A stretch of DNA of 64,000 nucleotides from a virus (IMGVR_UViG_3300036766_002286); one strand, 5' to 3'. Shown: positions 34,597 through 59,490, counted from the first letter of the stretch. The notes: generated by a model from the sequence alone, not told the origin. A program made the numbers and translations.

Positions 34597-35018
34597 GTAA
34601 GATTACCCGGGAGAGCTTCTTAGAAAGGAGCAAAAAACGCTCAGCCCTACTCCCTGTTAACTGTACGGGTCTAGACCTATCATATGCAGACCTTAAGTGT
34701 GCGCATTTAGCTGGCTTAGATTTATCGGGTGCCAATCTCAATGGAGCCAACCTTAGTTATACAAACCTTAGCAATACATATCTTAAAAAAGCTAACCTTA
34801 CCAAGGCAAATTTGTCTTCAGCAACCATGTATGGTACAAATCTCTATAAAGCAATTTTAATTAACGCTACTCTTACTAACGTAATGGTCGATCATACAAC
34901 CATTTTTGAGGAAACTAATCTGCAGGGTGCTATTTTATCCCTTGATTTTCCTAGATTTTGGTTTGCAAATTTTACGAAAGTAATTATGCCAGACGGCACT
35001 CTATGGAGACAACCATGA
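34593..35018 (+). CDS. Pentapeptide repeat protein (tandem quartet 3)
   Basis: ATGA overlap, GGAG SD inside upstream cap; KITRESFLE; MPDGTLWRQP. Confidence 0.92.
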   Translation: MSKITRESFLERSKKRSALLPVNCTGLDLSYADLKCAHLAGLDLSGANLNGANLSYTNLSNTYLKKANLTKANLSSATMYGTNLYKAILINATLTNVMVDHTTIFEETNLQGAILSLDFPRFWFANFTKVIMPDGTLWRQP

Positions 35019-37771: not shown

Positions 37772-38380
37772 GTGCACACAAGCAAAGAACAGTTAACTAG
37801 AGAGCAAGTTCTCGAAAAAGTTTCAAACCACGACAGCTTCGCTCACACAGATCTGTCTGGAATGGATCTGTCTAGAATGAATTTGTCAGGGTTAAATTTT
37901 AATCACGCCGGTTTGTATGCAGCAAACCTGACCGGGGCTGATTTCACACAAGCAAGTCTGCTCGGCGCCACCCTAAGTGCGTCCCACATGCAGGGTGCTA
38001 GGTTCACACATGCAGACTTAACTTCCGCCTATTTAATAGCAGCGATAGCCCAGGGCACTGATTTCAGTTTTGCTAATTTACAAGACACCTATTTAATTAC
38101 CACCACTTTTGATAAAGCAAATTTTTATAAAGCCGACATGTCTAGAGCTAGAGTGCGCGGAGCGACTTTTCGTGGAGCGAATCTTGAAAATGCTAATTTA
38201 ACAAATACAGATCTCATCGAAGTTATATCTAATGCTAAATTTCACGCACGCCTTAATCAAGTTATACCGGACATGCTTATATCTTATACTGATTTAGCTT
38301 TTACTGACCTAAGTTTTGCAGACTTTACCAAAGCGAACCTAACGAACACAATAGCCCCAGACGGGTCTGTTCACCTATGA
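37772..38380 (+). CDS. Pentapeptide repeat protein (LTREQVL N-cap)
   Basis: GGAGG SD + GTG; IAPDGSVHL. Confidence 0.92.
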   Translation: MHTSKEQLTREQVLEKVSNHDSFAHTDLSGMDLSRMNLSGLNFNHAGLYAANLTGADFTQASLLGATLSASHMQGARFTHADLTSAYLIAAIAQGTDFSFANLQDTYLITTTFDKANFYKADMSRARVRGATFRGANLENANLTNTDLIEVISNAKFHARLNQVIPDMLISYTDLAFTDLSFADFTKANLTNTIAPDGSVHL

Positions 38381-39072
38381 GTACTTATAAAAATCTCACA
38401 AGGCAAAATATAATAGATAATGTTGCTAATAATGTAGATATGAAGTTTTGGCATATTCGGGGCATTGATTTGTCTTATGCTGATTTGACTAAAGCTCGTT
38501 TTTTTGCTGTTTCATTCGAGAATGTTAATCTTAAAGGGGCGAGCTTGTCCGGAGCTGACTTGCGAGGTGCTACATTAAACGATATTAATTTGTCCTACGC
38601 AAACTTAACCAGAGCAGATCTGTTCGGTGCTTCACTTAAACAAGCCAACCTCCAAGGTATTAACGCTATAAGTCATGGAAAGTATTTTACCGACATGCGC
38701 AACACCAAGCTTCAGGGGGCAAACTTTCATGGCGCACACTTGCAAGGCGTACAACTAATCCTAGCTAAAGCAGAGGGTGCTAATTTCTCATTCGCTAACT
38801 TGACTTCTGCAAATATGACCAGTATTAATCTGACGTCGGCAGATTTAACTAACACGAATATGACTAAAGTTACTCTTGTTCAAGCAACTGCGATAGATGC
38901 TATTTTAAAAAATACTATTATGACAGACGCCAATCTCACAGAATTAAGAGTTAACGGCAACTACCCTCAAACATTTAAAACAACGACAGACCCAGAAGCC
39001 TATGAATTACTACTATCTGACACCATTCTCACCAATGCCATTATGCCCAATGGTGTCATATATGCAAGTTAG
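38377..39072 (+). CDS. Pentapeptide repeat protein, paralog of 35471..36154
   Basis: ATGA overlap; NAISHGKYFT and VNGNYPQTFKTTTDPEAY loops; MPNG. Confidence 0.92.
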   Translation: MSTYKNLTRQNIIDNVANNVDMKFWHIRGIDLSYADLTKARFFAVSFENVNLKGASLSGADLRGATLNDINLSYANLTRADLFGASLKQANLQGINAISHGKYFTDMRNTKLQGANFHGAHLQGVQLILAKAEGANFSFANLTSANMTSINLTSADLTNTNMTKVTLVQATAIDAILKNTIMTDANLTELRVNGNYPQTFKTTTDPEAYELLLSDTILTNAIMPNGVIYAS

Positions 39073-39143
39073 CTATAATATACATGTCAAGCACCACAAT
39101 CCTAAATTCGCCACAATAGTACTATTAAGTTAAGGAGAACCCT

Positions 39144-39959
39144 ATGAGAAAAAATATTAATTTCATTGACGGCTGGGGGAAACCAGCAACCCTTGTTTGG
39201 GGTGGGGACTGGAGTCACGTTCGCGGCAACTCAGCTGATTTTTCTTATGCCGACCTGTCTGGTGCGGATCTAACACCTCTCGGCGACTTGTGTGGCGCTA
39301 ATTTCCGCGGAGCAAACCTATCTAATACGACCCGCACTCATACTATAGATATTTTCTCTCTCATAGCCTACGATGCTGATTTCACTCAAGCCAATTTATC
39401 GAAAGCGTCATATCCTACGAGTTTTCCAGGCTTTCCCGGTGCGTATATGGTGCGATCTAAATTTAATGGAGCAAACCTTACCGAAATAAATTTAAGTAAC
39501 GCTGACCTTACTAGTGCTGATCTCAGTGCTGCAGACTTTACTAAAGCTAATCTCACATCAACTGTTTTAGTAGGAACAGTTTGCGGCTCAACCAATTTTT
39601 CTCAAGCAAATCTTACCAATGCTGATCTTCATGGTGCAGACTTATCTTGTGCAAATTTCACAGGCGCAATTATGATTGGTGCCAATCTCGGTCGTGTAGA
39701 TACCTCCACTGACTTTACTGACGCAGATCTCTCATATGCAGATTTCTCTCACGCTTTTCTAGATGAAGCAAATTTCACTAAAGCAAATTTATTTAAAGCA
39801 AATTTTTCTCATGCTAGGAAACTTAACAAAGAGGAGGACTGGTCAGGAGCTAGCTTTCGTGGGGCTAACCTAACCGAAGCCATTTTCGACCCCGACCACA
39901 AATTTGAAGGTGACGCTTATATTGGTGCCACCCTGCCAGACGGTACTTTGTACCGGTAA
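39144..39959 (+). CDS. Pentapeptide repeat protein (FID N-cap, LPDG C-cap)
   Basis: AAGGAG SD; ends HKFEGDAYIGATLPDGTLYR. Confidence 0.93.
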   Translation: MRKNINFIDGWGKPATLVWGGDWSHVRGNSADFSYADLSGADLTPLGDLCGANFRGANLSNTTRTHTIDIFSLIAYDADFTQANLSKASYPTSFPGFPGAYMVRSKFNGANLTEINLSNADLTSADLSAADFTKANLTSTVLVGTVCGSTNFSQANLTNADLHGADLSCANFTGAIMIGANLGRVDTSTDFTDADLSYADFSHAFLDEANFTKANLFKANFSHARKLNKEEDWSGASFRGANLTEAIFDPDHKFEGDAYIGATLPDGTLYR

Positions 39960-40032
39960 GTTATAAAATAACACCCGCACCTTGCTATTAGTAATACAGC
40001 ATCTACAGTATAAATAAACCAAGGAGACCTCT

Positions 40033-40626
40033 GTGAGTAAACCTAATATAGAATATACTGATCGTAATGATAACGAACAACGTCTACAATGGGACAAGTC
40101 GTGGGCAGACCTCGATTTATGTGGCGCTAATTTTGCAGGCGCCGATCTCAAGGGTGCTAACTTCGCACATTGTGACTTACGTGGCGCTATTTTATACAAG
40201 GCTAATCTAGAGGGCGCTGATTTTCGTAGTGCTGCTATGGTCTCAGCTGACTTAAGTGAAGCTGTCTTAGCTGGCGCAGATCTCTCACATGCAGATCTAT
40301 CATACGCCAAGTTACCTGGAGCAAATCTAGAATCGGCTGATCTGCGTGACGCTAACCTTAATGAAGCTGACCTAAGTGAAGCTAATTTAGTTAATGTCAT
40401 GTTTCACGGCGCTGAATTGAAAAGAGCTAATCTAGCTAATACTAATTTAGAAGGTGCTAATTTTTATCAAGCAACTCTGTATAAGGCTAATCTAGAGGGC
40501 GCTGATTTGCTCGACACTGACTTTAGCGGAGCAACCTTATTTGGTGTGTTATTGTCTGTTCGGCAACGAAATGTATGTCTTGGACGGGACGATGGTATTT
40601 TCGGTGGAGAGACAGCGCATGAATAA
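40033..40626 (+). CDS. Pentapeptide repeat protein
   Basis: AAGGAG SD + GTG; LQWDKSWADLDLCGANF shared with 43663. Confidence 0.93.
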   Translation: MSKPNIEYTDRNDNEQRLQWDKSWADLDLCGANFAGADLKGANFAHCDLRGAILYKANLEGADFRSAAMVSADLSEAVLAGADLSHADLSYAKLPGANLESADLRDANLNEADLSEANLVNVMFHGAELKRANLANTNLEGANFYQATLYKANLEGADLLDTDFSGATLFGVLLSVRQRNVCLGRDDGIFGGETAHE

Positions 40627-41047
40627 GCCTAATATAAAATATATTGATCGCAATGGTAACCCTCAGGAATTATCATGGGGCGAATCATGGGTAGGCATAG
40701 ATTTGGCTGGCGCTAACCTACAGGCCACTGATCTGCGGCAAGCTGAGCTGCCAAAGGCCAACCTGCAAGACGCAAATTTAAGTGGAGCAGATTTGAGACG
40801 TGCTGATTTATGTGATGCTAGTTTGCAAGGCGCTAACCTAGAGCGTGCTAATTTAGGTGGTGCTTACTTTTGGAGAGCTAATTTAAGTCACACCAATCTG
40901 CAACACACTAATTTACTAGGCGTTAATTTTGAAGATGCCAATTTAAGCCAAGCCGACTTTACAAATGCCGATCTGCAAGGTGTGACGCTTACTTTGCATC
41001 AACAAAAAGAGTGCATAGGATATAGTACAACTTCGAGAGACGCATGA
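40619..41047 (+). CDS. Pentapeptide repeat protein (YID N-cap, CIG C-cap)
   Basis: GGAG SD + ATG 40619; PNIKYIDRNG; QQKECIGY. Confidence 0.93.
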   Translation: MNKPNIKYIDRNGNPQELSWGESWVGIDLAGANLQATDLRQAELPKANLQDANLSGADLRRADLCDASLQGANLERANLGGAYFWRANLSHTNLQHTNLLGVNFEDANLSQADFTNADLQGVTLTLHQQKECIGYSTTSRDA

Positions 41048-41138
41048 TGCATAAGCCTAATGTAAAATATATTGATAGTCTAGGTAACCCGCAGGAACTT
41101 GTCTGGGGCGACTCATGGGTAGGCATAGATTTGGCGGG
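40779..41138 (+). repeat. Exact 360-bp direct repeat, copy 1
   Basis: Identical by manual alignment to 44123..44482 (offset 3344). Confidence 0.93.
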
Positions 41139-41484
41139 CGCTAATTTAACTAGCGCCAATCTGGTTGGTGCTAATTTAACTGGTGCTAATTTAACTAACG
41201 CCAATTTGACAGATGCAGCGCTGATTAGTGCAATCCTTCATGATGCAGATTTAAGTGACGCAAATCTACGCAAGGCTTGTCTAGTGCGTGCTACACTGCG
41301 TAATGCTAATCTGACGCGAGCAGATTTACGGGGCGCCACTTTAAATAGCACTAACTTATATGGTGCTGATTTAAGTGCCACTAATCTCACCAATGCTATT
41401 TTAACAGGCATAACCTTGTCAGAACAACAAAAAATCGCATGTATTGGTTATAATGAGTCAACTCCACAGCCAGCAGATATTTAA
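41044..41484 (+). CDS. Pentapeptide repeat protein (YID N-cap, CIG C-cap)
   Basis: ATGA overlap; KYIDSLG; LSEQQKIACIGY. Confidence 0.93.
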   Translation: MMHKPNVKYIDSLGNPQELVWGDSWVGIDLAGANLTSANLVGANLTGANLTNANLTDAALISAILHDADLSDANLRKACLVRATLRNANLTRADLRGATLNSTNLYGADLSATNLTNAILTGITLSEQQKIACIGYNESTPQPADI

Positions 41485-41612
41485 GTGTATAAGTCTACTA
41501 TGAGATGCTATTGTCCACTTATTCATATTAACTACCAAACACCTACCACATAAAGTCTCTTACATTTCGCTATATCCCATGAATAATACCAGAACAACAA
41601 AGAAGAATAACC

Positions 41613-41720
41613 ATATTTAATAAATACGGCCCACAAACCAAATATATTAAGAATTTATTTTATGAAGTCCATAAATTAAACAAAGAGCAAATAACTGCTT
41701 TGCAAAGTTCTGTTGCTTAG
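41613..41720 (+). pseudogene. Truncated copy of gene 45691..46113
   Basis: ATA replaces ATG; FNKYGPQTKYIKNLFYEVHKLNKEQITALQSSVA-TAG aligns with FDKYGPQTKYIKRLLDEVYSLNQDQITDLQKSV. Confidence 0.75.
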
Positions 41721-41807
41721 GTCGAAACTATCTAAATACGCGTGATCCCCATCCTCTGACTTCATACCTGGTCTGCATTCAATATAATGTCTATAAGGTC
41801 TTATTTT

Positions 41808-42752
41808 TTATTTTGATTTTATATCCCAACCATCAGCTATAATACAGCCATTTAGATTTGCGCCTATAAAGTTAGCATCTCCTAGCCCAGCACCTCTTAA
41901 ATCAGCAAAACTCAAATCAGCATTACCAAAATCGACGTGGTTTAAGTAAGCATCATTAAGCTTGGCATAACTTAAATCAGCACCACTCAGATCACTGTCA
42001 CTTAAGTCAGCACTAGTCAAATTGGCATACCTTAAATTAGCGCAACTTAAATTAGACTGATACAACAGCACGCGGCTTAGATCTGTTTTGCTGAGATCCG
42101 CTCCACGCATATTGGTTTCACTTAGCTTAACGCCGCTCAAGTTAACTCCACCTAAATTGGCTTCAACTAAGTTGGCTCTACTTAAATCTACCTTGTCTAG
42201 CTTGGTGCCTTTACTTAAATCCACCCCACCTAAATAGGCTCCACTCAAGTCGACGCCAACCAAAATAGTTTGACTCAAGTCAGCGCCTTTAAAACTAACC
42301 TTACTTAAATTAGCACCGGTGAAATCGGCGGCATATAAATTGGCTCTAAATAAATTAGCGGCGAGTAAAGTAGCTCCATTAAGCTTGGCGTTAGTTAAAT
42401 CAGCATCGTGTAAAGTAGCTCCATTTAAAACAGCTTTACTTAAATTAGCACTGCTCAGATTAGTATTATTTAGATTAGTATTATTTAGATACGCACTATG
42501 TAAGTTAACCATATACATGCGAGCGTCCTCTAAGTTGGCCCCATTTATACTAGCACTAGATAAATCAGCGTTACGCAAATCAGTTTCAGATAGATCTGCT
42601 CCATCTAAACTAGCTCTGCTTAAGTCCGCACCATTTAAATTAGCACCACTTAAATTGGCTCTACGTAAATCTTTTACTTGTCCATCTAATACAAGTATTG
42701 CGTCTTTTCCATCACAATCAATGTGAGGTACTTCACGATGTTTAGTTGTCAT
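41808..42752 (-). CDS. Long pentapeptide repeat protein (GCIxxxGW C-cap)
   Basis: AGGAG SD + ATG 42752; PHIDCDG; GCIIADGW. Confidence 0.93.
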   Translation of the reverse strand: MTTKHREVPHIDCDGKDAILVLDGQVKDLRRANLSGANLNGADLSRASLDGADLSETDLRNADLSSASINGANLEDARMYMVNLHSAYLNNTNLNNTNLSSANLSKAVLNGATLHDADLTNAKLNGATLLAANLFRANLYAADFTGANLSKVSFKGADLSQTILVGVDLSGAYLGGVDLSKGTKLDKVDLSRANLVEANLGGVNLSGVKLSETNMRGADLSKTDLSRVLLYQSNLSCANLRYANLTSADLSDSDLSGADLSYAKLNDAYLNHVDFGNADLSFADLRGAGLGDANFIGANLNGCIIADGWDIKSK

Positions 42753-43140
42753 TGGTTTTCTCCTGTGCTTGCATAATCCATCCTTCTGTAAAAATACAGC
42801 CATCCCAATTTACCCCAGTTAGATCTGCGCCGTGCAAATTTGCGCCAGTCAAGTTAGCATTATTAAGGTCAGCACCATTCAAATTAGCATTAGTTAAATT
42901 GGCAAAACTCAGATCGGCGCTGCTTAAATTAGCGTCGTTTAATTTGACACCATACAGATAGGCATCTCTCAAGTCAGCTCCGCTTAAATTAGAGCCCCGC
43001 AGATCTTTAAATTCGCCACCCAATGTAAATATTGCATTTTTACCCTTACGATCAATATAGGGTATTTTATTAGATCTTGGCGTTATTACGAACTCTTTTT
43101 GATCGACCAGCTTTGATTCTTCCTGAGATTTATCACTCAT
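42742..43140 (-). CDS. Pentapeptide repeat protein (GCIxxxGW C-cap)
   Basis: AAGGAG SD + ATG 43140; PYIDRKG; GCIFTEGW. Confidence 0.92.
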   Translation of the reverse strand: MSDKSQEESKLVDQKEFVITPRSNKIPYIDRKGKNAIFTLGGEFKDLRGSNLSGADLRDAYLYGVKLNDANLSSADLSFANLTNANLNGADLNNANLTGANLHGADLTGVNWDGCIFTEGWIMQAQEKTNDN

Positions 43141-43203
43141 AAGTACTCCTTGCATCCAGTTGTATCTTACTATAGGCGCTTAAGTCGTCTACACAAATAA
43201 TAT

Positions 43204-43290
43204 ATGTTCAAAGCTGATTTTTCAGGCACTGTACTCCGAGCCGCTTATAATGAGGCTGCCTTACCAGATGGCACTTTGTATCAACAATAA
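43204..43290 (+). pseudogene. Orphan PRP C-cap remnant
   Basis: FKADFSG...AYNEAALPDGTLYQQ-TAA, like the ends of 39144 and 44848. Confidence 0.6.
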
Positions 43291-43378
43291 GTCTCTTACT
43301 GTCATGATGTATCTCTAAAATTTCTTATCTTGATAGCAATTAGCCCCAATAGTATCATTAAACTAAGGAGCTAGAATA

Positions 43379-43660
43379 ATGAACCAAACACCCGTTCCGT
43401 CAGTTTCTACGATAGTTTCTACGATCAGAGCTATGATTGTTCATTATGAAATGGACTTTCTGGTGCGCAGGCAGAGTGGGAAAATGAGTCAAAAACAAAT
43501 AGACGACGACATCGAAATTATCGAAGATGCCAATAAGGCGATGGAAACGTTACTAAAGGACGATCTACGCTTGCGTGAGTACATCACCGAACTAGAAGAA
43601 GAAAACCGCCAACTTCGTTCCAGCCAGCCAGGACAGTTCTATACGCCGAGTGGAGAATAA
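43379..43660 (+). CDS. Small coiled-coil protein (possibly a distant TxAIR member)
   Basis: TTGATA-17-TATCAT and AAGGAG upstream; C-terminal heptads. Confidence 0.75.
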   Translation: MNQTPVPSVSTIVSTIRAMIVHYEMDFLVRRQSGKMSQKQIDDDIEIIEDANKAMETLLKDDLRLREYITELEEENRQLRSSQPGQFYTPSGE

Positions 43661-43662
43661 CG

Positions 43663-44391
43663 ATGACCAAACCAAATGTTAAATACAGAGATCGTAATGG
43701 TAACGAGCAACATCTACAATGGGACAAGTCGTGGGCAGACCTCGATTTATGTGGCGCTAATTTTGCAGGTTGCGATCTCATCGGTGCTAACTTCGCCGGC
43801 GCTGACTTACGTGGTGCTATTTTGTACAAGGCTAATCTGCGTGACGCTGATTTCCGTAGTGCTTCTATGATTTGTGCTGACCTAAGTGAAGCTATCTTAA
43901 CTGGCACTGATTTTAGCAATGCGGATTTATCACACGCAAAGCTGCGGGGAGCAAATCTAGAATCGGCTGTTCTAAGGGGCGCTAACCTTAATGAAGCTGA
44001 CCTACGTGAAGCTAATCTAATTAATGTCGCCTTTGCGGGCGCAGAATTGAAAAAAGCTAACTTAAGTAATACTAGTTTGGAAGGGGCTAATTTTTATGGG
44101 GCAACTCTGTATTACGCTAATCTAAGTGGAGCAGATTTGAGACGTGCTGATTTATGTGATGCTAGTTTGCAAGGCGCTAACCTAGAGCGTGCTAATTTAG
44201 GTGGTGCTTACTTTTGGAGAGCTAATTTAAGTCACACCAATCTGCAACACACTAATTTACTAGGCGTTAATTTTGAAGATGCCAATTTAAGCCAAGCCGA
44301 CTTTACAAATGCCGATCTGCAAGGTGTGACGCTTACTTTGCATCAACAAAAAGAGTGCATAGGATATAGTACAACTTCGAGAGACGCATGA
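43663..44391 (+). CDS. Chimeric pentapeptide repeat protein
   Basis: N-part homologous to 40033 gene; C-part identical to 40619 gene. Confidence 0.92.
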   Translation: MTKPNVKYRDRNGNEQHLQWDKSWADLDLCGANFAGCDLIGANFAGADLRGAILYKANLRDADFRSASMICADLSEAILTGTDFSNADLSHAKLRGANLESAVLRGANLNEADLREANLINVAFAGAELKKANLSNTSLEGANFYGATLYYANLSGADLRRADLCDASLQGANLERANLGGAYFWRANLSHTNLQHTNLLGVNFEDANLSQADFTNADLQGVTLTLHQQKECIGYSTTSRDA

Positions 44392-44482
44392 TGCATAAGC
44401 CTAATGTAAAATATATTGATAGTCTAGGTAACCCGCAGGAACTTGTCTGGGGCGACTCATGGGTAGGCATAGATTTGGCGGG
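44123..44482 (+). repeat. Exact 360-bp direct repeat, copy 2
   Basis: Identical to 40779..41138. Confidence 0.93.
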
Positions 44483-44855
44483 AGCCGATTTAAGCGGTGT
44501 AGAGTTAGCCGGCGCTAACTTTTCTAATGCTAATTTGAGACGCGCTAATATGCGACGTACTAACTTAGGCGCAGCAAATCTAAGCGCTGCTTGTTTGGTT
44601 GATTCCGACCTAATTAAAGCTAATTTATGCAGCGCAAATCTGAAAGACGCTAATTTGCGTAGCGCTGATTTAAATCACGCGGATTTAAGTAACACTGACT
44701 TAAGTAATGCTAACTTACGTTTCACTAATTTACGACGTGCTGATTTGCAGGGTGCTGATTTATCAGGCGCCGAACTACGAGGAGTTGAGCTATCTAGCCG
44801 CCAGAAAAAGGCGTGCATTGGTCTTAGTGAAACTGTACAGTCTTCTTATGAGTAG
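44388..44855 (+). CDS. Pentapeptide repeat protein (N-cap identical to 41044)
   Basis: MMHKPNVKYIDSLG...; different core; RQKKACIG. Confidence 0.92.
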   Translation: MMHKPNVKYIDSLGNPQELVWGDSWVGIDLAGADLSGVELAGANFSNANLRRANMRRTNLGAANLSAACLVDSDLIKANLCSANLKDANLRSADLNHADLSNTDLSNANLRFTNLRRADLQGADLSGAELRGVELSSRQKKACIGLSETVQSSYE

Positions 44856-45612
44856 ATCGAATCTTAAATATATTGACCAAGACGGCCACCCACAAGAATT
44901 AAAGTGGGGAGAAAGATGGTCAGAATTTGCCCTGGCTGAGGCTAATTTATCTAATTCCGACTTGTCTGGCGCAGATCTCACTAACGTATGTTTAGATAAA
45001 TCAAATTTAACTAACGCCAATTTATCAGGCATAACCGCCACTTCAGAAGTATGTATGCAAGAAGCAAATCTTGAGGGAGCCAATCTTTCTAAGGCATTTC
45101 TTCCTGGAGCTTATTTGACACGCTCAAATTTCTCTTATGCTAATCTTACTTCCATAGAGCTGTCTAATGCAGATCTTACAGGCGTTAAGTTACTAAGAAC
45201 AGACCTAACCGGAGCAAATCTTTCAGGTGCTATCATGGTAGGCTCCCAGGCTTTGCAAGCTATTTTTACTAAAGCCGACCTGATAGAGACAGACCTGTAC
45301 GGATCCGAACTGGGCAATTCCAAATTTATAGGTGCTAATTTATCTCGCGCCAATTTATCTAGAGCAGAACTGTATGATGCAGATTTTTCTGGCGCAGATC
45401 TAACAGATGCTAGGTTTGTAAATACTAGTGTACATGGAACAAATTTCACTAAAGCAAATCTTTTAGGCGTGGATTTTTCCACCACCCAACATCTAGAACT
45501 ATGCTGTATGCAGTACGCTAATCTCACTGGCGCCCGCTTTCCGGAAGACCACGTATTTGAAGGCAACGCTTATATTGGTGCTACTTTACCAGACGGTACT
45601 TTGTACCGGTAA
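44848..45612 (+). CDS. Pentapeptide repeat protein (YID N-cap, LPDG C-cap)
   Basis: ATG 44848 overlaps the upstream stop; LKYIDQDG; FEGNAYIGATLPDGTLYR. Confidence 0.92.
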   Translation: MSRSNLKYIDQDGHPQELKWGERWSEFALAEANLSNSDLSGADLTNVCLDKSNLTNANLSGITATSEVCMQEANLEGANLSKAFLPGAYLTRSNFSYANLTSIELSNADLTGVKLLRTDLTGANLSGAIMVGSQALQAIFTKADLIETDLYGSELGNSKFIGANLSRANLSRAELYDADFSGADLTDARFVNTSVHGTNFTKANLLGVDFSTTQHLELCCMQYANLTGARFPEDHVFEGNAYIGATLPDGTLYR

Positions 45613-45690
45613 GCTATAAAAGTCCCAATAAAGTCTCTTGCTTTTAGTCACATTCCGCGTACAGTACTTAAATAATCAAGGAGAACTACC

Positions 45691-46113
45691 ATGTTTGATA
45701 AATACGGTCCACAAACTAAATATATTAAGAGGTTACTAGATGAGGTCTATTCGTTAAACCAGGACCAAATAACTGATTTGCAAAAATCTGTTACTCACTC
45801 TACAAACCGCGCAGCCGAGGGTATTGCCTGGCGCGCTGCTATAAGCGTTTCTCACCACCCTGCCGGAGATGCCATCGGAGAAACTGTAAGTGCTTCATCT
45901 AACAACGCCTGGGACGCCGCCGCGCAAGTCACCGAATCCGCTTGTAAGAATATTGATCAAGATGCCACTTCCGCAATTCGTGGGGTTTCATCAGCACTAG
46001 CTGTCCGCGATCGTATTGGTGGTAAATTCACTCAAGAACATTATGATGTCCTTACTAAGCCTTGGCGTAAAATTGTCGGCTCAATTCATCCAGACGATAA
46101 AAATCTAATATAA
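45691..46113 (+). CDS. Actinophage-type hypothetical protein
   Basis: YGPQT...AW..AA...ALAVRD.IG..FTQEHYD.LT.PWR...G.IHPDD, a pattern I associate with actinobacterial phage hypotheticals; AAGGAG SD. Confidence 0.75.
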   Translation: MFDKYGPQTKYIKRLLDEVYSLNQDQITDLQKSVTHSTNRAAEGIAWRAAISVSHHPAGDAIGETVSASSNNAWDAAAQVTESACKNIDQDATSAIRGVSSALAVRDRIGGKFTQEHYDVLTKPWRKIVGSIHPDDKNLI

Positions 46114-46147
46114 AAATATGCTCGCGCAAGCCACACGTAAGTAACTG

Positions 46148-48580
46148 TTACAATCCGCGTAATTCCCCAAAAGCAGCTATACTAACCTCCAGTGGTGATC
46201 CACTACCATCACGCTTTGAGCGATCTTTAGGATAACCAACAACCGATCCAGCAGCACTAATTCCTATTGGTAATTTTATTCCCACTCCAGCAGCAACTAT
46301 ACCTGCTTCAGCTTTTCGCAAAGTCATACATCGCACTCCACCAGTTCCTCTACCTTTAGTTGGATAATCAGCCACACTACTTACTTTAACAGAGCCCATA
46401 TCTGATATTGTAACTACTACTGCCAAACTTCCCGGCTCATAGCATGTAAATAAGATTACTTCATTACCATCAGCAACTCTAATCCCAGCCATTCCGCCGG
46501 CAGTCATGCCCTTGCTTGCAACCAAGTTTAAGTTAAATCTAAGTAACTGTGCATCTGTAGTTACAAATATACCATCAAATGACTCTGCGCACTTGCTTGA
46601 TAGGGCCACCACCCCGACAACTTTATCTTTAGGTTTTAAAGTTATAATAGGCTTAGGGTCTAATCTAAGTGGGAATTCACTAGTAAGAATTTTTTTAATA
46701 AATCCTTGTGCAGTTCCCATAACGATAGCTTGTCCGTTACTTGCATCAAATAACCCTACAGCGCTTTCACCGGGCTCAAAAGAAAAAACTTCTTTGCATA
46801 ATACACCCCTAGAAGATCCAGCTGCAATTGGTAGATCTATTACAGAGCACCGCATAAGGCGGCCATGCGAGGTAACTACTCCAATTATCGCTCTGTTAGT
46901 TGTAATGGCCTGTGATAGTACAACATCATGTTTTGAGGCTTTACCACTGAAAGGCTCGATCCCATAGCGCCCTATAAGGCCGGTTGTAGTTAAGACTACT
47001 ATACACGGGTCATCTGGTATTTCTAAGGATACCGATGCAGAGCTCACTATAGCAAGGTCTTTAACTAGACGTGATTTTCGCGGCGTTCCATGCAACTTAC
47101 TTACTTCTCCCAGCTCGGTAGATACCAGCTCACGCATGACTTTATCAGAAGATAATAACTTATTTAGCTCAGCTATAGTCACCTTGAGGTCTTTTAGCTC
47201 ACCTTTAAGGCTTGCTACTTCTAAACTAGTCAGTCTACGTAACGGCATTTCTAAAATAACATCTGTTTGTATATCTGATAGCGCAAACGCCTTCGAAAGC
47301 TTTTCTCTAGCTACAGCCGTACTGCTACTAGATTTAATAATCTTTATGACTTTGTCTATAGATACTAGAGCTAGCACTAACCCTTCTACTATATGTTCGC
47401 GTGCTTTGGTCTTAGCTAAACGGAATACTGTACGCCTACGAACGACTTCTAAACGGTGTTTTAGATATAGGCTGCACAATTCTAACAGTCCTAGAGTTTT
47501 AGGTTCCCCATCCACTAAAGCTACGTTATTCACTGAAAAAGTTTCCTGCAGGGGAGTTAGTCGGTACAATTCATCTAGTACTGCTTGAGGATTAAAACCA
47601 TTTTTGCATTCTATAACCAAATGTAATCCGGGAGTTTTTCTATCTGTAAAGTCATTAATATTAGATACTCCGGTCAATTTTTTTGCATTTACTAAAGCTT
47701 TTACTCGTTCCATTATTTTTACAGGTCCCACATTATACGGAAGCTCTGTTATAACAATTGCTTTTTTCCGACCTGTTGTATCTTCAATTGTAGCTGATGC
47801 TCGCAGCATAAAAGATCCACGGCCAGTAACATAGGCCTCTTTTATACCTTCACGACCTATTATAATCCCACCCGTAGGCAAATCTGGCCCTAGAATAAAT
47901 TTCATTAATTCTGACAGACTCATTGTCGGATTCAATAGCAGTGCTTGCAATCCTTTTATAACCTCAACAAGATTGTGCGGAGGCATGTTTGTAGCCATAC
48001 CTACAGCAATTCCAGTTGACCCATTAACTAGCAAATTAGGAAATCCAGCTGGCATAACTTCAGGCTCGACTCCCGTTCCATCATAAGTCTCTGTCATGTT
48101 TACAGTATCTTCATCTATACCTTCAACTAAACTTAAAGCTGACGCAGCCATCCTACATGCCGTGTATCTACTCGCAGAAGCTGGATCATCTAGAGAACCA
48201 AATCCTCCATGTGGGTCTATTAAAGGTAATCGCATAGACCAAGCTTGTGCCAGACGTACAAGTGCTTCGTAAATGGCCATGTCGCCATGTGGGTGATATT
48301 TTCCCATTGTATCACCCACCACTTTAGCACACTTGTTGTAAGGTGCTTTTGGTAGCATTCCTTGCGCATATAGTGACCATAGAATGCGTCGATGCACCGG
48401 TTTTAGTCCATCGCGCACATCAGGCAATGCTCGTGCTACTATGACACTCATAGCGTATTCTAGAAATGATCCACTAAGCTCTTTAGATACATCTATATCA
48501 GTAGTACCACTTAAGACAAGTGCACTACTAGATTTGCTAGCAGCTTTAGTCGCCCGCGGTTTAGCTTTTTTAGTTGCCAC
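46148..48580 (-). CDS. parC: Type IIA topoisomerase A subunit (actinobacterial topo IV/ParC-like GyrA paralog)
   Basis: RALPDVRDGLKPVHRR, YHPHGD, SRYT catalytic Tyr, GIAVGMATN, GPDLPTGG; pinwheel CTD without a QRRGGKG GyrA box, last blade KGRGTGGVRC; start GTG 48580 or ATG 48589. Confidence 0.9.
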   Translation of the reverse strand: MATKKAKPRATKAASKSSSALVLSGTTDIDVSKELSGSFLEYAMSVIVARALPDVRDGLKPVHRRILWSLYAQGMLPKAPYNKCAKVVGDTMGKYHPHGDMAIYEALVRLAQAWSMRLPLIDPHGGFGSLDDPASASRYTACRMAASALSLVEGIDEDTVNMTETYDGTGVEPEVMPAGFPNLLVNGSTGIAVGMATNMPPHNLVEVIKGLQALLLNPTMSLSELMKFILGPDLPTGGIIIGREGIKEAYVTGRGSFMLRASATIEDTTGRKKAIVITELPYNVGPVKIMERVKALVNAKKLTGVSNINDFTDRKTPGLHLVIECKNGFNPQAVLDELYRLTPLQETFSVNNVALVDGEPKTLGLLELCSLYLKHRLEVVRRRTVFRLAKTKAREHIVEGLVLALVSIDKVIKIIKSSSSTAVAREKLSKAFALSDIQTDVILEMPLRRLTSLEVASLKGELKDLKVTIAELNKLLSSDKVMRELVSTELGEVSKLHGTPRKSRLVKDLAIVSSASVSLEIPDDPCIVVLTTTGLIGRYGIEPFSGKASKHDVVLSQAITTNRAIIGVVTSHGRLMRCSVIDLPIAAGSSRGVLCKEVFSFEPGESAVGLFDASNGQAIVMGTAQGFIKKILTSEFPLRLDPKPIITLKPKDKVVGVVALSSKCAESFDGIFVTTDAQLLRFNLNLVASKGMTAGGMAGIRVADGNEVILFTCYEPGSLAVVVTISDMGSVKVSSVADYPTKGRGTGGVRCMTLRKAEAGIVAAGVGIKLPIGISAAGSVVGYPKDRSKRDGSGSPLEVSIAAFGELRGL

Positions 48581-48770
48581 AATCCACATCCGGCATCATA
48601 GATTTTATTGAGTCTTGTACAACATAATATTTCCGCATCTATAATACTGTCCGCTATTTGCTAAATAGCGCAAGCACCCTTTATTTTAGCCCATATTTGA
48701 TGCTATATAAATATATTATTTATATTAAAGATATCAAAAGTTATTTAGTATTTTATCAAAATATTTCAAG

Positions 48771-50030
48771 TTAGCTTTTCAGAATTAACATAACGAACTC
48801 ACTCCACCAGCCATCTGTTGTCTTAGCTGTTCCAGCGTCATCTGCCCCAACTAGTTTTATAGTGAAATCAGCCACTCGTCCGAACGTTTGCAGAAAACAT
48901 GTATTAGTAACGGTAAGAAAATATGCTGTATATTCGGTATCAACACTAGTGCCGGTATCAACTACACACCCGTCTACTAGCACTTCACCTAAATATATTC
49001 CATCTGACTGTATGAAACCATCTATAGTTCCATCAAAATCGCCATCTAGTTTAACATCCAGTGTCATTGAACCTTTAATATCAGTAGTTAATACCCGTGC
49101 TTTAACACTCACTGTCTCTGAGTTAACTGCTACCTTAACGTCCTGTATGGTAGCCAAAAACGCAGTTTCACTAGCCCACACCAGATAGCCGGTATAATTA
49201 ATATTATCTGCCGGCACGTTGTTTTCTAGTTGTTGTTTTGCAGCTATAATCCAATCTAGATATGCAGAAACTCTAGTAAAAATAGTAGGGCTCTCTAGGC
49301 AGTCGCCTTCACCATAGGAAACTATTCCAAGCAGTACGGGTTTTTTCGATCCTACAAATCCAACCAGCGGCCCGCCACTATCTCCGTTGCATGCCCCAAC
49401 GAATGCTCCAACGCTTTTGTTGTAAAAACCCGCCGTAATTTGTAAGCTTGGTATAAAATCAGGAAACCATTTGCTAGCACTTTTACCATAGTCACTTTGT
49501 TTACTAGAACCTAAACGTTTAGCAGCATTACCCCACTCATCAACTCCCCACCCATATAAAGACATACTCCCAGGCTTTGTCCGAGCAAATTTATCATTTT
49601 TACCAGTTAGTGCTAGCGGCGTCATAGACGATGGTGCCGCTAGTCGTATAAGTGCTATATCATTGCCTGTCACAAAATTATCTATGTTAAATCCCGTATG
49701 TTCAATAAAGTCTACAACTTGAATTTTCGGGAAATTAGCTCCACTCGTTCCTCCAACTCCAACAAGCAGTTGTTCTGGATTCAGCCCATCGACACAGTGG
49801 GCTGCAGTTAAAACGTAAAAAGGGTCAATTAAGGTACCTGTACAAATCCCAGATGGATACCATACTCCAGGTAGTTCATTATAATATAATTGTACCGCCC
49901 AAGGGGCTTTAGAGTTTGCTATTCGTTGTACCGGATATACTATTGCATTTGCATCTATAGCCGGTAGAACCATGATGGTAATTAGCATAGCGTTTATTGT
50001 AATAAAAATTGCTCGGATGATTTTTTGCAT
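48771..50030 (-). CDS. Secreted trypsin-like serine protease (S1)
   Basis: VLTAAHC, DIALI, GDSGGP; signal peptide from ATG 50030. Confidence 0.93.
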   Translation of the reverse strand: MQKIIRAIFITINAMLITIMVLPAIDANAIVYPVQRIANSKAPWAVQLYYNELPGVWYPSGICTGTLIDPFYVLTAAHCVDGLNPEQLLVGVGGTSGANFPKIQVVDFIEHTGFNIDNFVTGNDIALIRLAAPSSMTPLALTGKNDKFARTKPGSMSLYGWGVDEWGNAAKRLGSSKQSDYGKSASKWFPDFIPSLQITAGFYNKSVGAFVGACNGDSGGPLVGFVGSKKPVLLGIVSYGEGDCLESPTIFTRVSAYLDWIIAAKQQLENNVPADNINYTGYLVWASETAFLATIQDVKVAVNSETVSVKARVLTTDIKGSMTLDVKLDGDFDGTIDGFIQSDGIYLGEVLVDGCVVDTGTSVDTEYTAYFLTVTNTCFLQTFGRVADFTIKLVGADDAGTAKTTDGWWSEFVMLILKS

Positions 50031-50311
50031 AGTAGAGATAGTGTGGTTCTTATAACCTCTGTCAAAAAGCTCTATTAGCACTAATTGTGTTGTCTAGTTG
50101 TGATTTAATATTAAAAAATAAAGCTGCATAAAATAATTTACTTATCTCAGAGCTCTCACAATATTAAATAGTGTACAAAGTCTATTTAGTTATTCTTCAA
50201 CTACACCAATGGTTTACGGCTAATTTTACTCAGATTAATACCCAAAAACTTATCCCAGTAATAAGTCGGTTACTTACAAGCTATTTCGCTAAAACTCGCA
50301 CAATCATAGGT

Positions 50312-53251
50312 ATGTATACATTTTCTAGATTTTGTAAGCGAGTCGTAAGGCTGCTGTTAGTTTGCGGCCTTTTAGCGTTACCCAGCTTAATCCTCTCCAA
50401 CGGAGCAACCGCTATAGCAGGAACAAGATATTGGGTAGGTGGAACTGGAAACTGGGATGCATCAACTACTACACATTGGTCAGAAACGTCTGGGGGTGCC
50501 GGCGGCGCTGCTGTACCTACTTTTGAAGATGCAGTTATATTTAACTCAGCATCGAACGCAACAGCCTATACGGTTACAGTAACTACGGCTGCGAATGCTG
50601 CTGATATCACTTTTGCTAATCCGGCTTCTGGTGCTTTAACATTTGCTGGGTCATCTACTTTAAATGTGTATGGAAACTTTGCTATAAGCTCCGCTATTAC
50701 TAGAAACTTTACAGGAGCACTTAATTTTGTAGCCACATCTACAGGTAAAACTATTACAGCAAATGGAATAACTTTTGATTCAACTACAACTTTTGAAGGA
50801 GTTGGGGGTGGATGGACTTTGCAAGACGCCTGGCAAACCTCTGCTAGCTTTTGGCTGAAGGCGGGATCGTTGAATACAAATGGAAAAACTGTTACCGTCT
50901 TTGGGGGGATGTATCTTCAAGCTGGGACTACTCGTGCATTAACACTTGGCGCAAGCGTAGTGACTGCCTCAGGGGGATGGATCGCAGGCCAAGATCCAAA
51001 CGGACTAACTATTGATGCTGGCACCTCCATAATAAATACCCCAACCCTGTCAGGAGGAGACCTAACATATAATGTCGTTAACTTCGACGCTGTAAATAAT
51101 TTGAGCATATCCGGTACTAACACATTTGCAACCGTAACGTACTCAGGCGCAGGACCGGGTGCCGGGGCAGGCGAGACTACTGCTAATATGATACTGAGTG
51201 ATAATCAAATCATAGGCACATTAATCATAAATGGTGATTCAACAACAGATCGAGTTCTTGTCACATCTGATACAATAGGAACGCCAAGAACATTAACAGT
51301 GAACACACTACTAACTGTAACTAATATAGACTTTCGTGATATTACTGGTGCTGGAGCGATATCTTGGAATCTGGCTGCAATTACAGGAAAATCCGGTGAT
51401 GCTGGAGGAAATAGTGGAATAACTTTTACACCAAGTGCTACACAAACAGCGAACGGAACCACATCTTTTAGCTGGTCAGACGTCTCTCGTTGGACATCTA
51501 GAGTCCCACTACCGCAAGATGACGTGATCATTAATTTACCATTTGAAGCAGACCAAACAATATTAATGGACATGGGTCGTTCAGGAAGAAATATAGACTT
51601 TACAGGCACAACATGGACGGGCACACTAACTCTAGACCCTGCAGGCAACGATCAAGGAGAGGGAGATATTTTTGGTTCATTAACCCTAGTTCCCAACATG
51701 ACTGTGCTAGCGGAAAGATACTGGGTATTTGCAGGCAGAGCAAATTACACCCTAACAACAGCTGGAATAATATTAGAACGTAGCATTTTTCTACAGGCCC
51801 CAGGTGGCACACTAACATTGGGTGGCAACCTAACTCTGGGCCCAACGAGATTCCTGAACGTCTACGCAGGTACATTAGATGTTTCGGCTTCTAATTATAT
51901 AATCTCAGCGGGGAGTATCCTAGCCCAAGATTCTACAACGACAATAAATTTTGGCTCGGCCGTTCATCTAATAACTGGTGCGGGTACTGCGTTATCCGTT
52001 AATTCAGATAGTACTCTCAACTCAGGAACTTCCATTATTAAATTTACAGACACTTCAGATACAGAGATATATGTAAGTGGCGGTGGTAAAACATATAACA
52101 ATGTGTGGTTTTCACGCGGATCCTCAACTGGAGATATCTATATAGATGGAGCCAATACATTTGCAGACTTCAAGGACGATGGAACTTCTGCTCACACAAT
52201 ATACTTTCAAGAAGATACTATTCAAACCTTTAATACTTTCACAGTTTCTGGCTCAGCTGGTAATTTAATTTCTCTTGACACGGCTTGGCCTGATGTTATC
52301 GGAACATATACACTCACTAAGGCAGGCTCCGGTCAGATATCTAGCGATTATTTAAACATTCAACACGCCATTGCTACCCCGGCTAACACATGGTATGCCG
52401 GGGTGAATAGTGTTAACAATCAGGCAGTCTCGCCAAATGGATCAGGTTGGATTTTTTCGGTACCAGTGCCCCCTACCACAACAACTACTACCACTACAGT
52501 ACCCGCTACAACCACAACCACTACAATACCAGCAACAACTACAACCACTATTATTATTCCAAACACATCAACTACGACACCGGCAACAATCCCAGAAACC
52601 ACAACAACTACTATTGCACCACTCGGTATTCCGAGTGCACCTTTTGGTGTGACTGGTATTCCAGGCAACCGTCGTGTAGTATTACATTGGGAAGCTCCTA
52701 TAGACTCTGGTGATACTCCCATTGTAGATTATGTAGTAGAGTACACTATAGATGGTGGTAGATCTTGGGATTCTATACGTACAGGCCAATCTGCCAGGAC
52801 AAGGGCGGTTTTAGTAAACCTACAAAATGGTCAACCCTACAAGTTCAGAGTTATAGCAGTAAACGACTCTGGACAAAGTGATCCATCCAGCGCATCTGCG
52901 CGTATTATACCAAGAGCACCAGCACTACCACCTGTAGTACAAACTACCACTACAACTACTACGGTTGCGATAAGTGTGCCGACTACAGTACTAGAAAGTG
53001 GCACAACTTCTACGGTCACAACAGTCCTTAGCTCAACATCTACTAGTGTAGCAAACAATATCTCAACTACGACTATCCCAGTTATAGTTATCACAGTTAC
53101 AAATAGTACAGTAATAGAAACTATGACCACAACTATAATTAGAACATGCGTTCTTGCAGCGGGCGGCCAGAAGTGTACTACAAGAACACAACAGCGCAGG
53201 CTAGTAAATTATGGGTTTTCAGCGCACTCTTTCATAGATTCTAGGCGGTAA
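50312..53251 (+). CDS. Large exported beta-rich protein with Thr-rich linkers and one fibronectin type III domain
   Basis: Signal peptide; RYWVGGTGNW...VPT..D.V.F, with a related W....W...VP...DDV block later; poly-Thr tracts; LHWEAP...Y.VEY...YKFRV.AVN..G.S.PS. Confidence 0.85.
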   Translation: MYTFSRFCKRVVRLLLVCGLLALPSLILSNGATAIAGTRYWVGGTGNWDASTTTHWSETSGGAGGAAVPTFEDAVIFNSASNATAYTVTVTTAANAADITFANPASGALTFAGSSTLNVYGNFAISSAITRNFTGALNFVATSTGKTITANGITFDSTTTFEGVGGGWTLQDAWQTSASFWLKAGSLNTNGKTVTVFGGMYLQAGTTRALTLGASVVTASGGWIAGQDPNGLTIDAGTSIINTPTLSGGDLTYNVVNFDAVNNLSISGTNTFATVTYSGAGPGAGAGETTANMILSDNQIIGTLIINGDSTTDRVLVTSDTIGTPRTLTVNTLLTVTNIDFRDITGAGAISWNLAAITGKSGDAGGNSGITFTPSATQTANGTTSFSWSDVSRWTSRVPLPQDDVIINLPFEADQTILMDMGRSGRNIDFTGTTWTGTLTLDPAGNDQGEGDIFGSLTLVPNMTVLAERYWVFAGRANYTLTTAGIILERSIFLQAPGGTLTLGGNLTLGPTRFLNVYAGTLDVSASNYIISAGSILAQDSTTTINFGSAVHLITGAGTALSVNSDSTLNSGTSIIKFTDTSDTEIYVSGGGKTYNNVWFSRGSSTGDIYIDGANTFADFKDDGTSAHTIYFQEDTIQTFNTFTVSGSAGNLISLDTAWPDVIGTYTLTKAGSGQISSDYLNIQHAIATPANTWYAGVNSVNNQAVSPNGSGWIFSVPVPPTTTTTTTTVPATTTTTTIPATTTTTIIIPNTSTTTPATIPETTTTTIAPLGIPSAPFGVTGIPGNRRVVLHWEAPIDSGDTPIVDYVVEYTIDGGRSWDSIRTGQSARTRAVLVNLQNGQPYKFRVIAVNDSGQSDPSSASARIIPRAPALPPVVQTTTTTTTVAISVPTTVLESGTTSTVTTVLSSTSTSVANNISTTTIPVIVITVTNSTVIETMTTTIIRTCVLAAGGQKCTTRTQQRRLVNYGFSAHSFIDSRR

Positions 53252-59210: not shown

Positions 59211-59490
59211 TATCACCCCTTTTATCCTATTAACTCTACAATTGATTGTGCTAATTCCTAAGGGTAAGGCATATAATACAGCGGTATTTACGGTAACCTA
59301 CCATCTTTCATTTATCGTGATTAGGTATATCAATCCTAGTTATAACTGGTTGCACCGGCCCAGCTGTCAAGCACAATAAATATACATGGCTGTCACCTCT
59401 AGGTTATTTGAAAGCAATCAAATAGCAAGGAAAATAGTTATAGTTAATTAGCATCTCGCGCGTATAGTATAAAACAATACAGGAGATATT

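What the first reader, a model, noticed from the sequence alone, without database searches (positions are those of the whole stretch)
40779..44482. Exact 360-bp repeat that produces two in-frame chimeric PRP genes
Seen: 40779..41138 equals 44123..44482 base for base. The tract covers the 3' part of one gene, the ATGA junction and the N-cap of the next, and both ends lie inside pentapeptide codons in frame. As a result 43663 = a 40033-like N-part plus the 40619 C-part, and 44388 = the 41044 N-cap plus a different core. The flanks are only moderately similar, apart from a 57-bp identical tract (40083..40139 = 43713..43769). Inference: a recent gene conversion or unequal crossover, which is direct evidence for the shuffling mechanism.
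Basis: seen in the sequence. Interest (0 to 1): 0.8.

Follow-up and report, generated by a model that had tools for sequence, protein, structure and literature searches.

The report
Recent copied patch between pentapeptide-repeat genes
Two gene clusters 3.3 kb apart share a flawless 360-base patch, most likely copied recently from one to the other, which fused two rod-protein genes in frame and gave a third a new front end; this is a clean example of a known process, not a new mechanism.

Summary
40779-41138 equals 44123-44482 base for base (360 bp, maximal). It is by far the longest exact repeat in the window; the next is 57 bp. The left flank, at another offset, is only 82% identical (dS 0.45), so about 66 mismatches were expected and none is seen. 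The event is therefore recent.

Cluster B follows gene 40033 up to 44122, then switches to gene 40619 within a 2-bp microhomology. The switch is in frame and in pentapeptide register (repeat unit 25 joined to unit 5, the same helix face).

The 2,984 bp between the copies is not duplicated, so a single unequal crossover is excluded. My best reading is a non-reciprocal templated copy (ectopic gene conversion in the wide sense), probably from A into B. Direction is inferred, not shown. Single-sequence AlphaFold2 models of both chimeras are continuous beta-helices.

An assembly error could at most exaggerate the identity; reads were not available. The rest of the array is old and diverged, so this shows one event, not a general shuffling engine. 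The scan had already noted this same stretch in an overlapping window (e1-5511884).

The parts
40779..41138 (+). Copy A of the exact 360-bp tract: C-terminal 13.5 repeat units and C-cap of gene 40619, the ATGA junction, and the 32-aa N-cap of gene 41044
   Evidence: Exact identity, maximal; gene content
44123..44482 (+). Copy B of the exact 360-bp tract: C-terminal part of chimeric gene 43663, the ATGA junction, and the N-cap of gene 44388
40033..40626 (+). X1a: PRP gene, 197 aa, 31-aa N-cap plus 28 pentapeptide units plus its own C-cap. Homologue of the N-part of the chimera
40619..41047 (+). X2a: PRP gene, 142 aa, N-cap plus 18 units plus C-cap. The tract starts in its unit 5
41044..41484 (+). 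X3a: PRP gene, 146 aa, N-cap (inside the tract) plus 18 units plus C-cap
43663..44391 (+). X12b: chimeric/fused PRP gene, 242 aa, 38 units. X1-type N-cap and units 1-24, then from unit 25 identical to X2a units 5-18 and C-cap
   Evidence: AlphaFold2 model: mean pLDDT 87.8, and 97-98 across the junction. Foldseek: HetL 3DU1, Np275/276 fusion 2J8K
44388..44855 (+). X3b: PRP gene, 155 aa. N-cap identical to X3a, then its own 20-unit core and C-cap
   Evidence: AlphaFold2 model: mean pLDDT 81.5
40039..40509 (+). Older homologous block, A side (X1a), 81.7% identical to 43669-44139 at offset 3630; holds the 57-bp exact run 40083-40139
   Evidence: dS 0.45, dN 0.15; 57-bp run P = 4.5e-4
43669..44139 (+). 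Older homologous block, B side (N-part of X12b); holds the 57-bp exact run 43713-43769
44122..44125 (+). Left switch point in B: 44122 (C) matches X1a, 44125 (A) matches X2a, and only the 'TA' between them is shared by all three sequences
   Evidence: read directly from the alignment
41139..44122 (.). 2,984-bp single-copy interval bracketed by the two direct copies: X3a core, a fragment of a 140-aa-gene paralogue, two minus-strand PRP genes (41808-42803, 42742-43155), the 93-aa gene 43379-43660, and the N-part of X12b. Inferred to be deletable by recombination between the repeats
   Evidence: The deletion product is an inference

Best explanation
A recent, non-reciprocal, templated copy of a 358-360-bp segment passed between two related pentapeptide-repeat (PRP) gene clusters on the same replicon. 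This is ectopic gene conversion in the wide sense. The likely direction is from cluster A (genes 40033-40619-41044, each a complete N-cap/core/C-cap gene) into cluster B.

Inferred course: a break or stalled fork in B was repaired using A as template. Copying started where the end of B's X1-type gene (repeat unit 25) paired out of register with unit 5 of X2a, by 2 bp of identity plus 7 of 9 bases of repeat-level similarity. It ran through the X2a C-cap, the ATGA junction and the X3a N-cap. It rejoined B at the first repeat unit of B's next gene.

The lost piece included the X1b C-cap and any X2b N-cap. The product is therefore a fused 38-unit gene (43663) followed by a gene with a swapped N-cap (44388). 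Both joins are in frame and in pentapeptide register, so both proteins stay continuous beta-helices.

Shown: the identity, its sharp edges, the register shift, the intact frames, the absence of any duplicated interval, and models that fold through both junctions. Inferred: direction, mechanism, and that the contig reflects the real DNA.
For: Recency:
- 360 of 360 bases are identical, against 81.7% identity (dS 0.45) in the adjoining homologous block. About 66 mismatches were expected.
- With zero differences, the 95% upper bound on divergence is about 0.8%. That is under roughly 4% of the JC-corrected divergence of the flank (about 0.21), computed.

Patch rather than crossover:
- The offset is 3630 left of the tract and 3344 inside it. 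The net 286-bp loss is 1 mod 3 and matches the frame difference between 40033 and 40619.
- The interval between the copies has no second copy.

Both edges coincide with the limits of similarity:
- On the left, only 'TA' is shared.
- On the right, the X3a and X3b cores are 48% identical in protein, the same as X3a against X2a (47%).
- A conversion between pre-existing homologues would not be expected to fill the homologous block to within 2 bp on both sides. One event that created the junctions is simpler.

Direction A to B (suggestive only):
- X2a and X3a have the same build (N-cap plus 18 units plus C-cap), while B carries the odd 38-unit fusion.
- The tract's N-cap has its closest other relative next door in A (X2a N-cap, 81%; 56-60% to the others).

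Viability:
- Unit 25 is joined to unit 5 (25 = 5 mod 4), so the helix face is kept.
- Single-sequence AlphaFold2 gives mean pLDDT 87.8 for the fusion, 97-98 across the junction, and 81.5 for X3b.
- Foldseek finds HetL and the Np275/276 fusion.

Older exchanges between the same clusters: tracts of 82%, 88% and 75% identity, and a 57-bp exact run with P = 4.5e-4.
Against: - No reads, no second assembly and no related locus could be examined, so neither the reality of the second copy nor the direction is independently confirmed.
- The direction argument is parsimony only. B to A, or a third donor elsewhere on the 616-kb replicon, is not excluded, because only this window could be read.
- Junctions with 2 bp of microhomology are unusual for RecA-type conversion, so the mechanism (template switch, synthesis-dependent annealing, or end joining onto a copied piece) is open.
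- The fusion in B could be older than the conversion.
Confidence: 0.62

Rival explanations
1. Assembly or polishing effect in a metagenome contig. The two places are really similar but not identical, or belong to different strains, and the assembler or consensus step made them identical.
For: Earlier notes describe the DNA as a 616-kb replicon from a sediment metagenome. No independent copy of the sequence was found in any collection. Repeats longer than a read are the classic weak point of assemblies.
Against: Inference from how assemblers work, not a test. The four borders of the tract are all different, and the B borders share only 2 bp (left) and 0 bp (right) beyond the tract with the A borders. 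A graph mis-walk cannot create such joins unless the true B is already identical to A over at least a k-mer at both ends. An error could therefore inflate, say, 97-99% identity to 100%, but it could not invent the chimeric junctions. With the unique interval included, the given order is the only linear path. Both joins keep frame and pentapeptide register, and both products are modelled as continuous beta-helices. The repeat is not back to back and does not lie at a window end.
Confidence: 0.1
2. Classical homologous gene conversion between two pre-existing homologous blocks. B had already lost 286 bp (an older X1-X2 fusion). Later the homologous X2-C/X3-N block was homogenised in either direction, with the tract running out to the limits of homology.
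For: The clusters share older homologous blocks of 75-88% identity, so they have a common origin and a history of exchange. The N-caps are the most conserved part of this subfamily and could have given the right-hand homology.
Against: Conversion needs homologous sequence outside the converted tract. Here the identity fills the block to within 2 bp on the left and stops where similarity stops on the right. No stretch of 'old' homology at about 80% remains between the tract and the junctions.
Confidence: 0.18
3. Reciprocal event. The 3,344-bp unit (tract plus interval) entered as a circle by a single crossover within the tract, or the structure is a remnant of an unequal crossover or tandem duplication.
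For: Direct repeats bracketing a segment are what Campbell-type integration leaves. The alternative pairing of flanks (A-left with B-right) would also give intact genes (X2a, and X3 N-cap plus X3b core).
Against: Nothing else in the interval is duplicated, so a tandem duplication is excluded. No integrase, replication or transfer gene lies in the interval; it holds PRP genes, a gene fragment and a 93-aa gene. A source for such a circle is needed, and that source would itself be a product of the same repeat.
Confidence: 0.05
4. Programmed diversification. The array is a cassette repertoire in which register-keeping segment copying routinely builds new PRP chimeras, as in pilE/pilS, vlsE or lamprey VLR copy choice.
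For: The junction lies in repeat register with very short homology. Several short exact patches (57, 48, 27, 26 bp) occur among neighbouring paralogues. The replicon is extraordinarily dense in PRP genes.
Against: There is only one long identical tract in 64 kb, and most paralogues are below 70% identity at DNA level. All the genes involved are complete, with their own start codons and mostly ribosome-binding sites; there is no expression site with silent partial cassettes. Neither the Pfam scan of ten ORFs between 40619 and 59216 nor the Rfam scan of 38000-47000 showed a dedicated enzyme or RNA element.
Confidence: 0.05

Closest known systems
Ectopic (interlocus) gene conversion between bacterial paralogues, e.g. 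tufA/tufB and the pe/ppe families of Mycobacterium tuberculosis (PMC6053082; PMC10591178; Santoyo and Romero 2005, as cited in PMC6053082)
   Same: A tract between paralogues in one genome is far more alike than its flanks, synonymous sites included. The transfer is non-reciprocal and gene order does not change. It occurs in a repeat-rich multigene family.
   Different: The tract does not homogenise two equivalent genes. It spans a gene boundary, its left join is out of register by 286 bp with only 2 bp of shared sequence, and it produces a gene fusion plus an N-cap swap. It therefore makes new forms instead of keeping copies alike.
Np275/Np276 of Nostoc punctiforme (PDB 2J8K; Vetting et al. 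2007, described in PMC8145042)
   Same: Adjacent small PRP genes whose fusion gives one continuous right-handed quadrilateral beta-helix. The chimera 43663 matches this structure by Foldseek.
   Different: There a single ancestral gene was split and was re-fused in the laboratory. Here two complete capped genes appear to have been fused in nature by recombination, and the unfused arrangement survives 3.6 kb upstream.
Segmental gene-conversion systems of antigenic variation (pilE/pilS of Neisseria, vlsE of Borrelia, msp2 of Anaplasma); named from general knowledge, not tested against any sequence here
   Same: Short segments are copied from one family member into another, in frame, giving mosaic genes.
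   Different: There is no expression site with silent partial cassettes, only one recent tract in 64 kb, and no sign of a dedicated cis element or of high frequency.
HetL-type stand-alone PRPs (PDB 3DU1)
   Same: Best structural match of the chimera: E 1e-13, 36% identity over 208 columns. Small, with no fused domains.
   Different: The proteins here carry a beta-hairpin N-cap (K-P-N-x-K-Y-x-D motif) and a C-cap with a Q-x-K-x-x-C-I-G motif, and they sit in a giant tandem array on an actinobacteria-linked replicon.

Membership tests
Ectopic (interlocus) gene conversion | Tract between paralogues in one genome is much more similar than the flanking homologous sequence, synonymous sites included | tested here: met
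   0 of 360 differences in the tract against 84 of 459 (dS 0.45) in the flank
Ectopic (interlocus) gene conversion | Non-reciprocal: no duplication, deletion or reordering of the sequence between the two sites | tested here: met
   The interval 41139-44122 has no second copy, and the order of flanks is kept
Ectopic (interlocus) gene conversion | Homologous sequence continues outside the tract on both sides, in the same register (classical homologous recombination) | tested here: not met
   The left flank is homologous only at another offset (3630 against 3344), with 2 bp shared at the switch. The right flank is related at family level only: 48% aa, no BLASTN hit
Ectopic (interlocus) gene conversion | Donor copy left unchanged and recipient altered (direction known) | not testable with these tools
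   No outgroup locus, reads or second assembly. Only parsimony favours A to B
Unequal crossover / tandem duplication | The whole interval between the exchange points is duplicated (or deleted), with one hybrid junction | tested here: not met
   Identity is confined to 360 bp, and the 2,984 bp between is single copy
Pentapeptide-repeat proteins (Pfam PF00805; Rfr fold) | At least eight tandem A(D/N)LXX-type pentapeptides | tested here: met
   PF00805 E 4.6e-96 (43663), 6.6e-35 (44388), 2e-32 (40619), 3.4e-34 (41044). 18 to 38 units parsed
Pentapeptide-repeat proteins (Pfam PF00805; Rfr fold) | Right-handed quadrilateral beta-helix, four units per coil | tested here: met
   Predicted models only: mean pLDDT 87.8 and 81.5. 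Foldseek matches HetL, Np275/276, QnrB1 and MfpA
Programmed cassette conversion (pilE/pilS, vlsE type) | One expressed gene plus silent, truncated donor cassettes | tested here: not met
   All the genes involved are complete ORFs with start codons, and most have a ribosome-binding site
Programmed cassette conversion (pilE/pilS, vlsE type) | Many mosaic tracts among family members, or variants within a population | tested here: inconclusive
   One tract above 57 bp in 64 kb. Population variants cannot be seen without reads
Diversity-generating retroelement (template/variable repeat) | The two repeats differ at adenine positions of the template, with a reverse transcriptase nearby | tested here: not met
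   The copies are identical. No reverse transcriptase among the ten ORFs scanned between 40619 and 59216. The whole window was not scanned
Assembly artefact (untrimmed overlap or collapsed repeat) | Repeat back to back or at a contig end, or joins explainable by shared k-mers between the true sequences | tested here: not met
   The copies are 3,344 bp apart in mid-window, and the four borders differ within 0-3 bp of the tract. Read support itself is not testable here

The most novel reading that the evidence does not exclude
The giant PRP array is a working repertoire in which caps and cores are regularly re-assorted by register-keeping, short-homology copy choice between clusters. That would be a prokaryotic counterpart of cassette-based receptor or antigen diversification. 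On this reading the 360-bp tract is a snapshot of that process on a giant extrachromosomal replicon, and a deep long-read data set would show many alternative in-register junctions.
Probability: 0.06. Interest if true: 0.75.

Novelty: new member of a known kind. Interest (0 to 1): 0.3.

Why it matters
It gives a dated, base-resolved example of how solenoid repeat genes make new forms. One copying event, kept in the 15-bp register of the repeat, lengthened one rod from 18 to 38 units and moved an N-cap onto a foreign core, and the models of both products are unbroken beta-helices. For the unusual replicon that carries hundreds of such genes, it shows that the family is not only old and diverging but can still exchange modules. 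It also predicts a testable instability: a 3,344-bp deletion or amplification between two perfect 360-bp direct repeats. It does not reveal a new mechanism or a function for these proteins.

Tried and rejected
- Whole genome: none is held for this window, so a third copy elsewhere on the replicon could not be sought.
- Related loci as outgroups: the 93-aa neighbour in genome contigs and the 140-aa neighbour in metagenome contigs and viral contigs gave no relative.
- An exact 44-mer from the tract was absent from viral contigs and metagenome contigs.
- Megablast of 39000-47000 against plasmids found no match.
- The protein search with the chimera returned only generic PRPs at 51% identity or less, swamped by repeat words.
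- The gyrA-like neighbour finds only Actinomycetota and other phyla at 49% or less, so no syntenic relative.
- Earlier notes show no look-alike stretch in other genomes.
- Rfam on 38000-47000: nothing.
- Promoter and terminator scans were at or below shuffle expectation.
- Inverted repeats at the tract borders: only one 10-nt pair, at 41137-41157.
- C-cap comparison to fix the direction was uninformative: 60% to both X3a and X3b.
- Rejected readings: unequal crossover (the interval is not duplicated); diversity-generating retroelement (no mismatches at all); mobile element (the tract is two gene parts in frame, with no ends or transposase); identity kept by selection (synonymous sites are identical too).
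Full report
**Observation**

The stretch 40779-41138 is identical to 44123-44482 over 360 bp, and the match cannot be extended at either end. I listed every exact repeat of 20 bp or more in the window. There are 15 direct ones, and this one stands far apart: the next are 57 bp (40083-40139 = 43713-43769), 48 bp and 27 bp. A self-BLAST of the whole window, which holds about 48 pentapeptide-repeat (PRP) genes, gives only 11 nucleotide-level similarities, and six of them join the two gene clusters discussed here.

**Anatomy**

Cluster A holds three overlapping genes:
- X1a, 40033-40626, 197 aa.
- X2a, 40619-41047, 142 aa.
- X3a, 41044-41484, 146 aa.

Cluster B holds:
- X12b, 43663-44391, 242 aa.
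- X3b, 44388-44855, 155 aa.
- A longer PRP gene, 44848-45612.

All match Pfam PF00805 strongly. Each has a 31-32-aa N-cap, a run of five-residue units and a C-cap with a Q-x-K-x-x-C-I-G motif. X1a has 28 units, X2a and X3a have 18 each, X3b has 20 and X12b has 38.

B follows X1a at offset 3630 with 81.7% identity over 471 bp (40039-40509 against 43669-44139). It then switches to X2a at offset 3344 and is exact from there. The switch is bounded by two informative bases. Position 44122 (C) agrees with X1a, and 44125 (A) agrees with X2a. Only the 'TA' between them is shared by all three sequences.

The net loss of 286 bp is 1 mod 3, which is the frame difference between X1a and X2a, so the fusion is in frame. 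The join falls in unit 25 of X12b and unit 5 of X2a. These differ by 20 units, or five full coils, so the helix face is kept.

The right edge lies in the third base of the Gly codon that ends the N-cap of X3a/X3b. Beyond it BLASTN finds nothing. The two cores are 48% identical as proteins, no closer than X3a is to X2a (47%).

**Age**

In the 459 codon-aligned bases left of the junction there are 84 differences (dS 0.45, dN 0.15). At that level about 66 differences would be expected in 360 bp, and none is seen. With zero differences, the 95% upper bound is about 0.8% divergence. The tract is therefore younger than roughly 4% of the age of the flanking homology (computed). Selection cannot explain this, because synonymous sites are identical too.

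The 57-bp exact run inside the 82% block is itself unlikely (P = 4.5e-4 by permutation within codon positions). It is probably a smaller, older patch.

**What kind of event**

A single unequal crossover would duplicate or delete the entire 3,344-bp unit. The 2,984 bp between the copies is single copy, so that reading is excluded.

A classical homologous conversion needs homology outside the converted tract. Here the identity fills the shared block to within 2 bp on the left and ends exactly where similarity ends on the right. The simplest account is one templated-copy event that made both junctions. On this account a broken or stalled end in one cluster paired, out of register but in pentapeptide register, with the other cluster. 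It copied about 360 nt and rejoined at the first unit after the N-cap. This is inference; template switching, synthesis-dependent annealing and end joining cannot be told apart from the sequence.

**Direction**

The evidence is suggestive only.
- X2a and X3a in A share the same 18-unit build, while B carries the odd 38-unit fusion that lacks an X1 C-cap and an X2 N-cap.
- The N-cap inside the tract has its closest other relative in the adjoining X2a N-cap (81%, against 56-60% for the others).

I therefore lean towards A as donor and B as recipient. The C-caps do not discriminate. A third donor elsewhere on the replicon cannot be excluded, because no genome is held.

**Are the products sound?**

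Single-sequence AlphaFold2 gives the fusion a mean pLDDT of 87.8 (pTM 0.83), with 97-98 across residues 141-160, which contain the junction at residue 154. X3b scores 81.5, rising from 71 to 87 across the N-cap/core boundary. Foldseek places the fusion with HetL (3DU1) and with the Np275/Np276 fusion (2J8K), Qnr and MfpA. These are models, not experiments.

**Artefact?**

According to earlier notes of this scan, the DNA is a 616-kb replicon from a sediment metagenome.

Reasoning from how assemblers work, all four borders of the tract differ within 0-3 bp of it. A mis-walk through an assembly graph therefore could not create the chimeric joins unless B were already identical to A at both ends of the tract. 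An error could overstate the identity but could not invent the structure. With the single-copy interval included, the given order is the only linear path. I put an artefact at about 10%.

**Wider picture**

The two clusters share older homologous pieces of different ages:
- The 3' end of 39144 and that of 44848 (88%, 75 bp).
- The spacer before X1a and the spacer before the 140-aa gene 45691.
- A decayed 5' fragment of a second copy of that gene at 41550-41717 (75%; start codon ATG changed to ATA, early stop).

So A and B have a common origin and have been rearranged several times. Elsewhere in the window the PRP genes are too diverged for DNA-level exchange. This agrees with earlier notes that the family is old. 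The tract is thus good evidence for one recent module exchange. It is not evidence for a general or programmed shuffling engine.

**Comparison with known systems**

It works like ectopic gene conversion between bacterial paralogues (tuf, pe/ppe; PMC6053082, PMC10591178). It differs in that it creates a fusion and a cap swap rather than homogenising equivalent genes, and its junctions lack flanking homology.

The natural fusion recalls the engineered Np275/Np276 fusion (PMC8145042). It lacks the defining features of cassette-based variation systems (an expression site with silent partial cassettes, many mosaics) and of diversity-generating retroelements.

A literature search for gene conversion in pentapeptide-repeat proteins found nothing specific.

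**Verdict**

This is a new member of a known kind, of modest interest. The scan had already noted this same stretch in an overlapping window (e1-5511884), and it has seen comparable paralogue conversion in another genome (e1-1326340).

Noticed in passing
41550-41717: Decayed 5' fragment of a second copy of the 140-aa gene 45691-46113. It is 75% identical over 168 bp, the start codon ATG is changed to ATA, and the reading frame stops after about 35 codons. Cluster A therefore once ended with this gene, as cluster B still does.
   Followed up: partly
39960-40032, 41550-41612 and 45613-45690: The spacer with its AAGGAG ribosome-binding site upstream of the 140-aa gene occurs in A twice: before X1a and before the gene fragment. 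It looks as if the three-gene cluster X1a-X2a-X3a was inserted into, or duplicated with, that spacer.
   Followed up: partly
40198-40223 = 40483-40508: A 26-bp exact internal repeat within gene 40033 (units 5-6 and 24-25, 19 units apart). Its second copy covers exactly the position homologous to the fusion junction in B. It may be a small templated patch, or a recombination-prone spot.
   Followed up: no
33975-34022 = 34400-34447; 34570-34596 = 34992-35018: Exact 48-bp and 27-bp repeats between neighbouring genes of another PRP subfamily (N-terminus M-S-K-I-T-R-E-S-F-L-E) spaced about 425 bp apart. Overall identity there is only about 64%, so these may also be small conversion patches.
   Followed up: no
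46148-48589 (-): A type IIA topoisomerase A subunit (GyrA/ParC-like; PF00521 E 7e-145) lies next to the PRP array. Its nearest relatives in 185,579 species genomes are Actinomycetota at only 43-49% identity. No GyrB-like partner is adjacent: the next gene is a trypsin-like protease.
   Followed up: partly
39870-40400 (-), 43584-43919 (-), 42319-42726 (+), 45135-45566 (-): Long antisense ORFs rich in K-S-A, R-S-A and K-L-A lie opposite PRP genes. They are mirror frames caused by the 15-bp codon periodicity, and are very unlikely to be genes.
   Followed up: no
26751-26777 / 27383-27409: The only exact inverted repeat of 20 bp or more in the window (27 bp, arms about 600 bp apart), in another PRP run.
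   Followed up: no
56697-59216 (-), 48771-50081 (-), 50171-53251 (+): A 2-oxoglutarate dehydrogenase E1-like gene, a trypsin-like protease and a 1,026-aa protein with a fibronectin type III domain lie downstream of the array.
   Followed up: no
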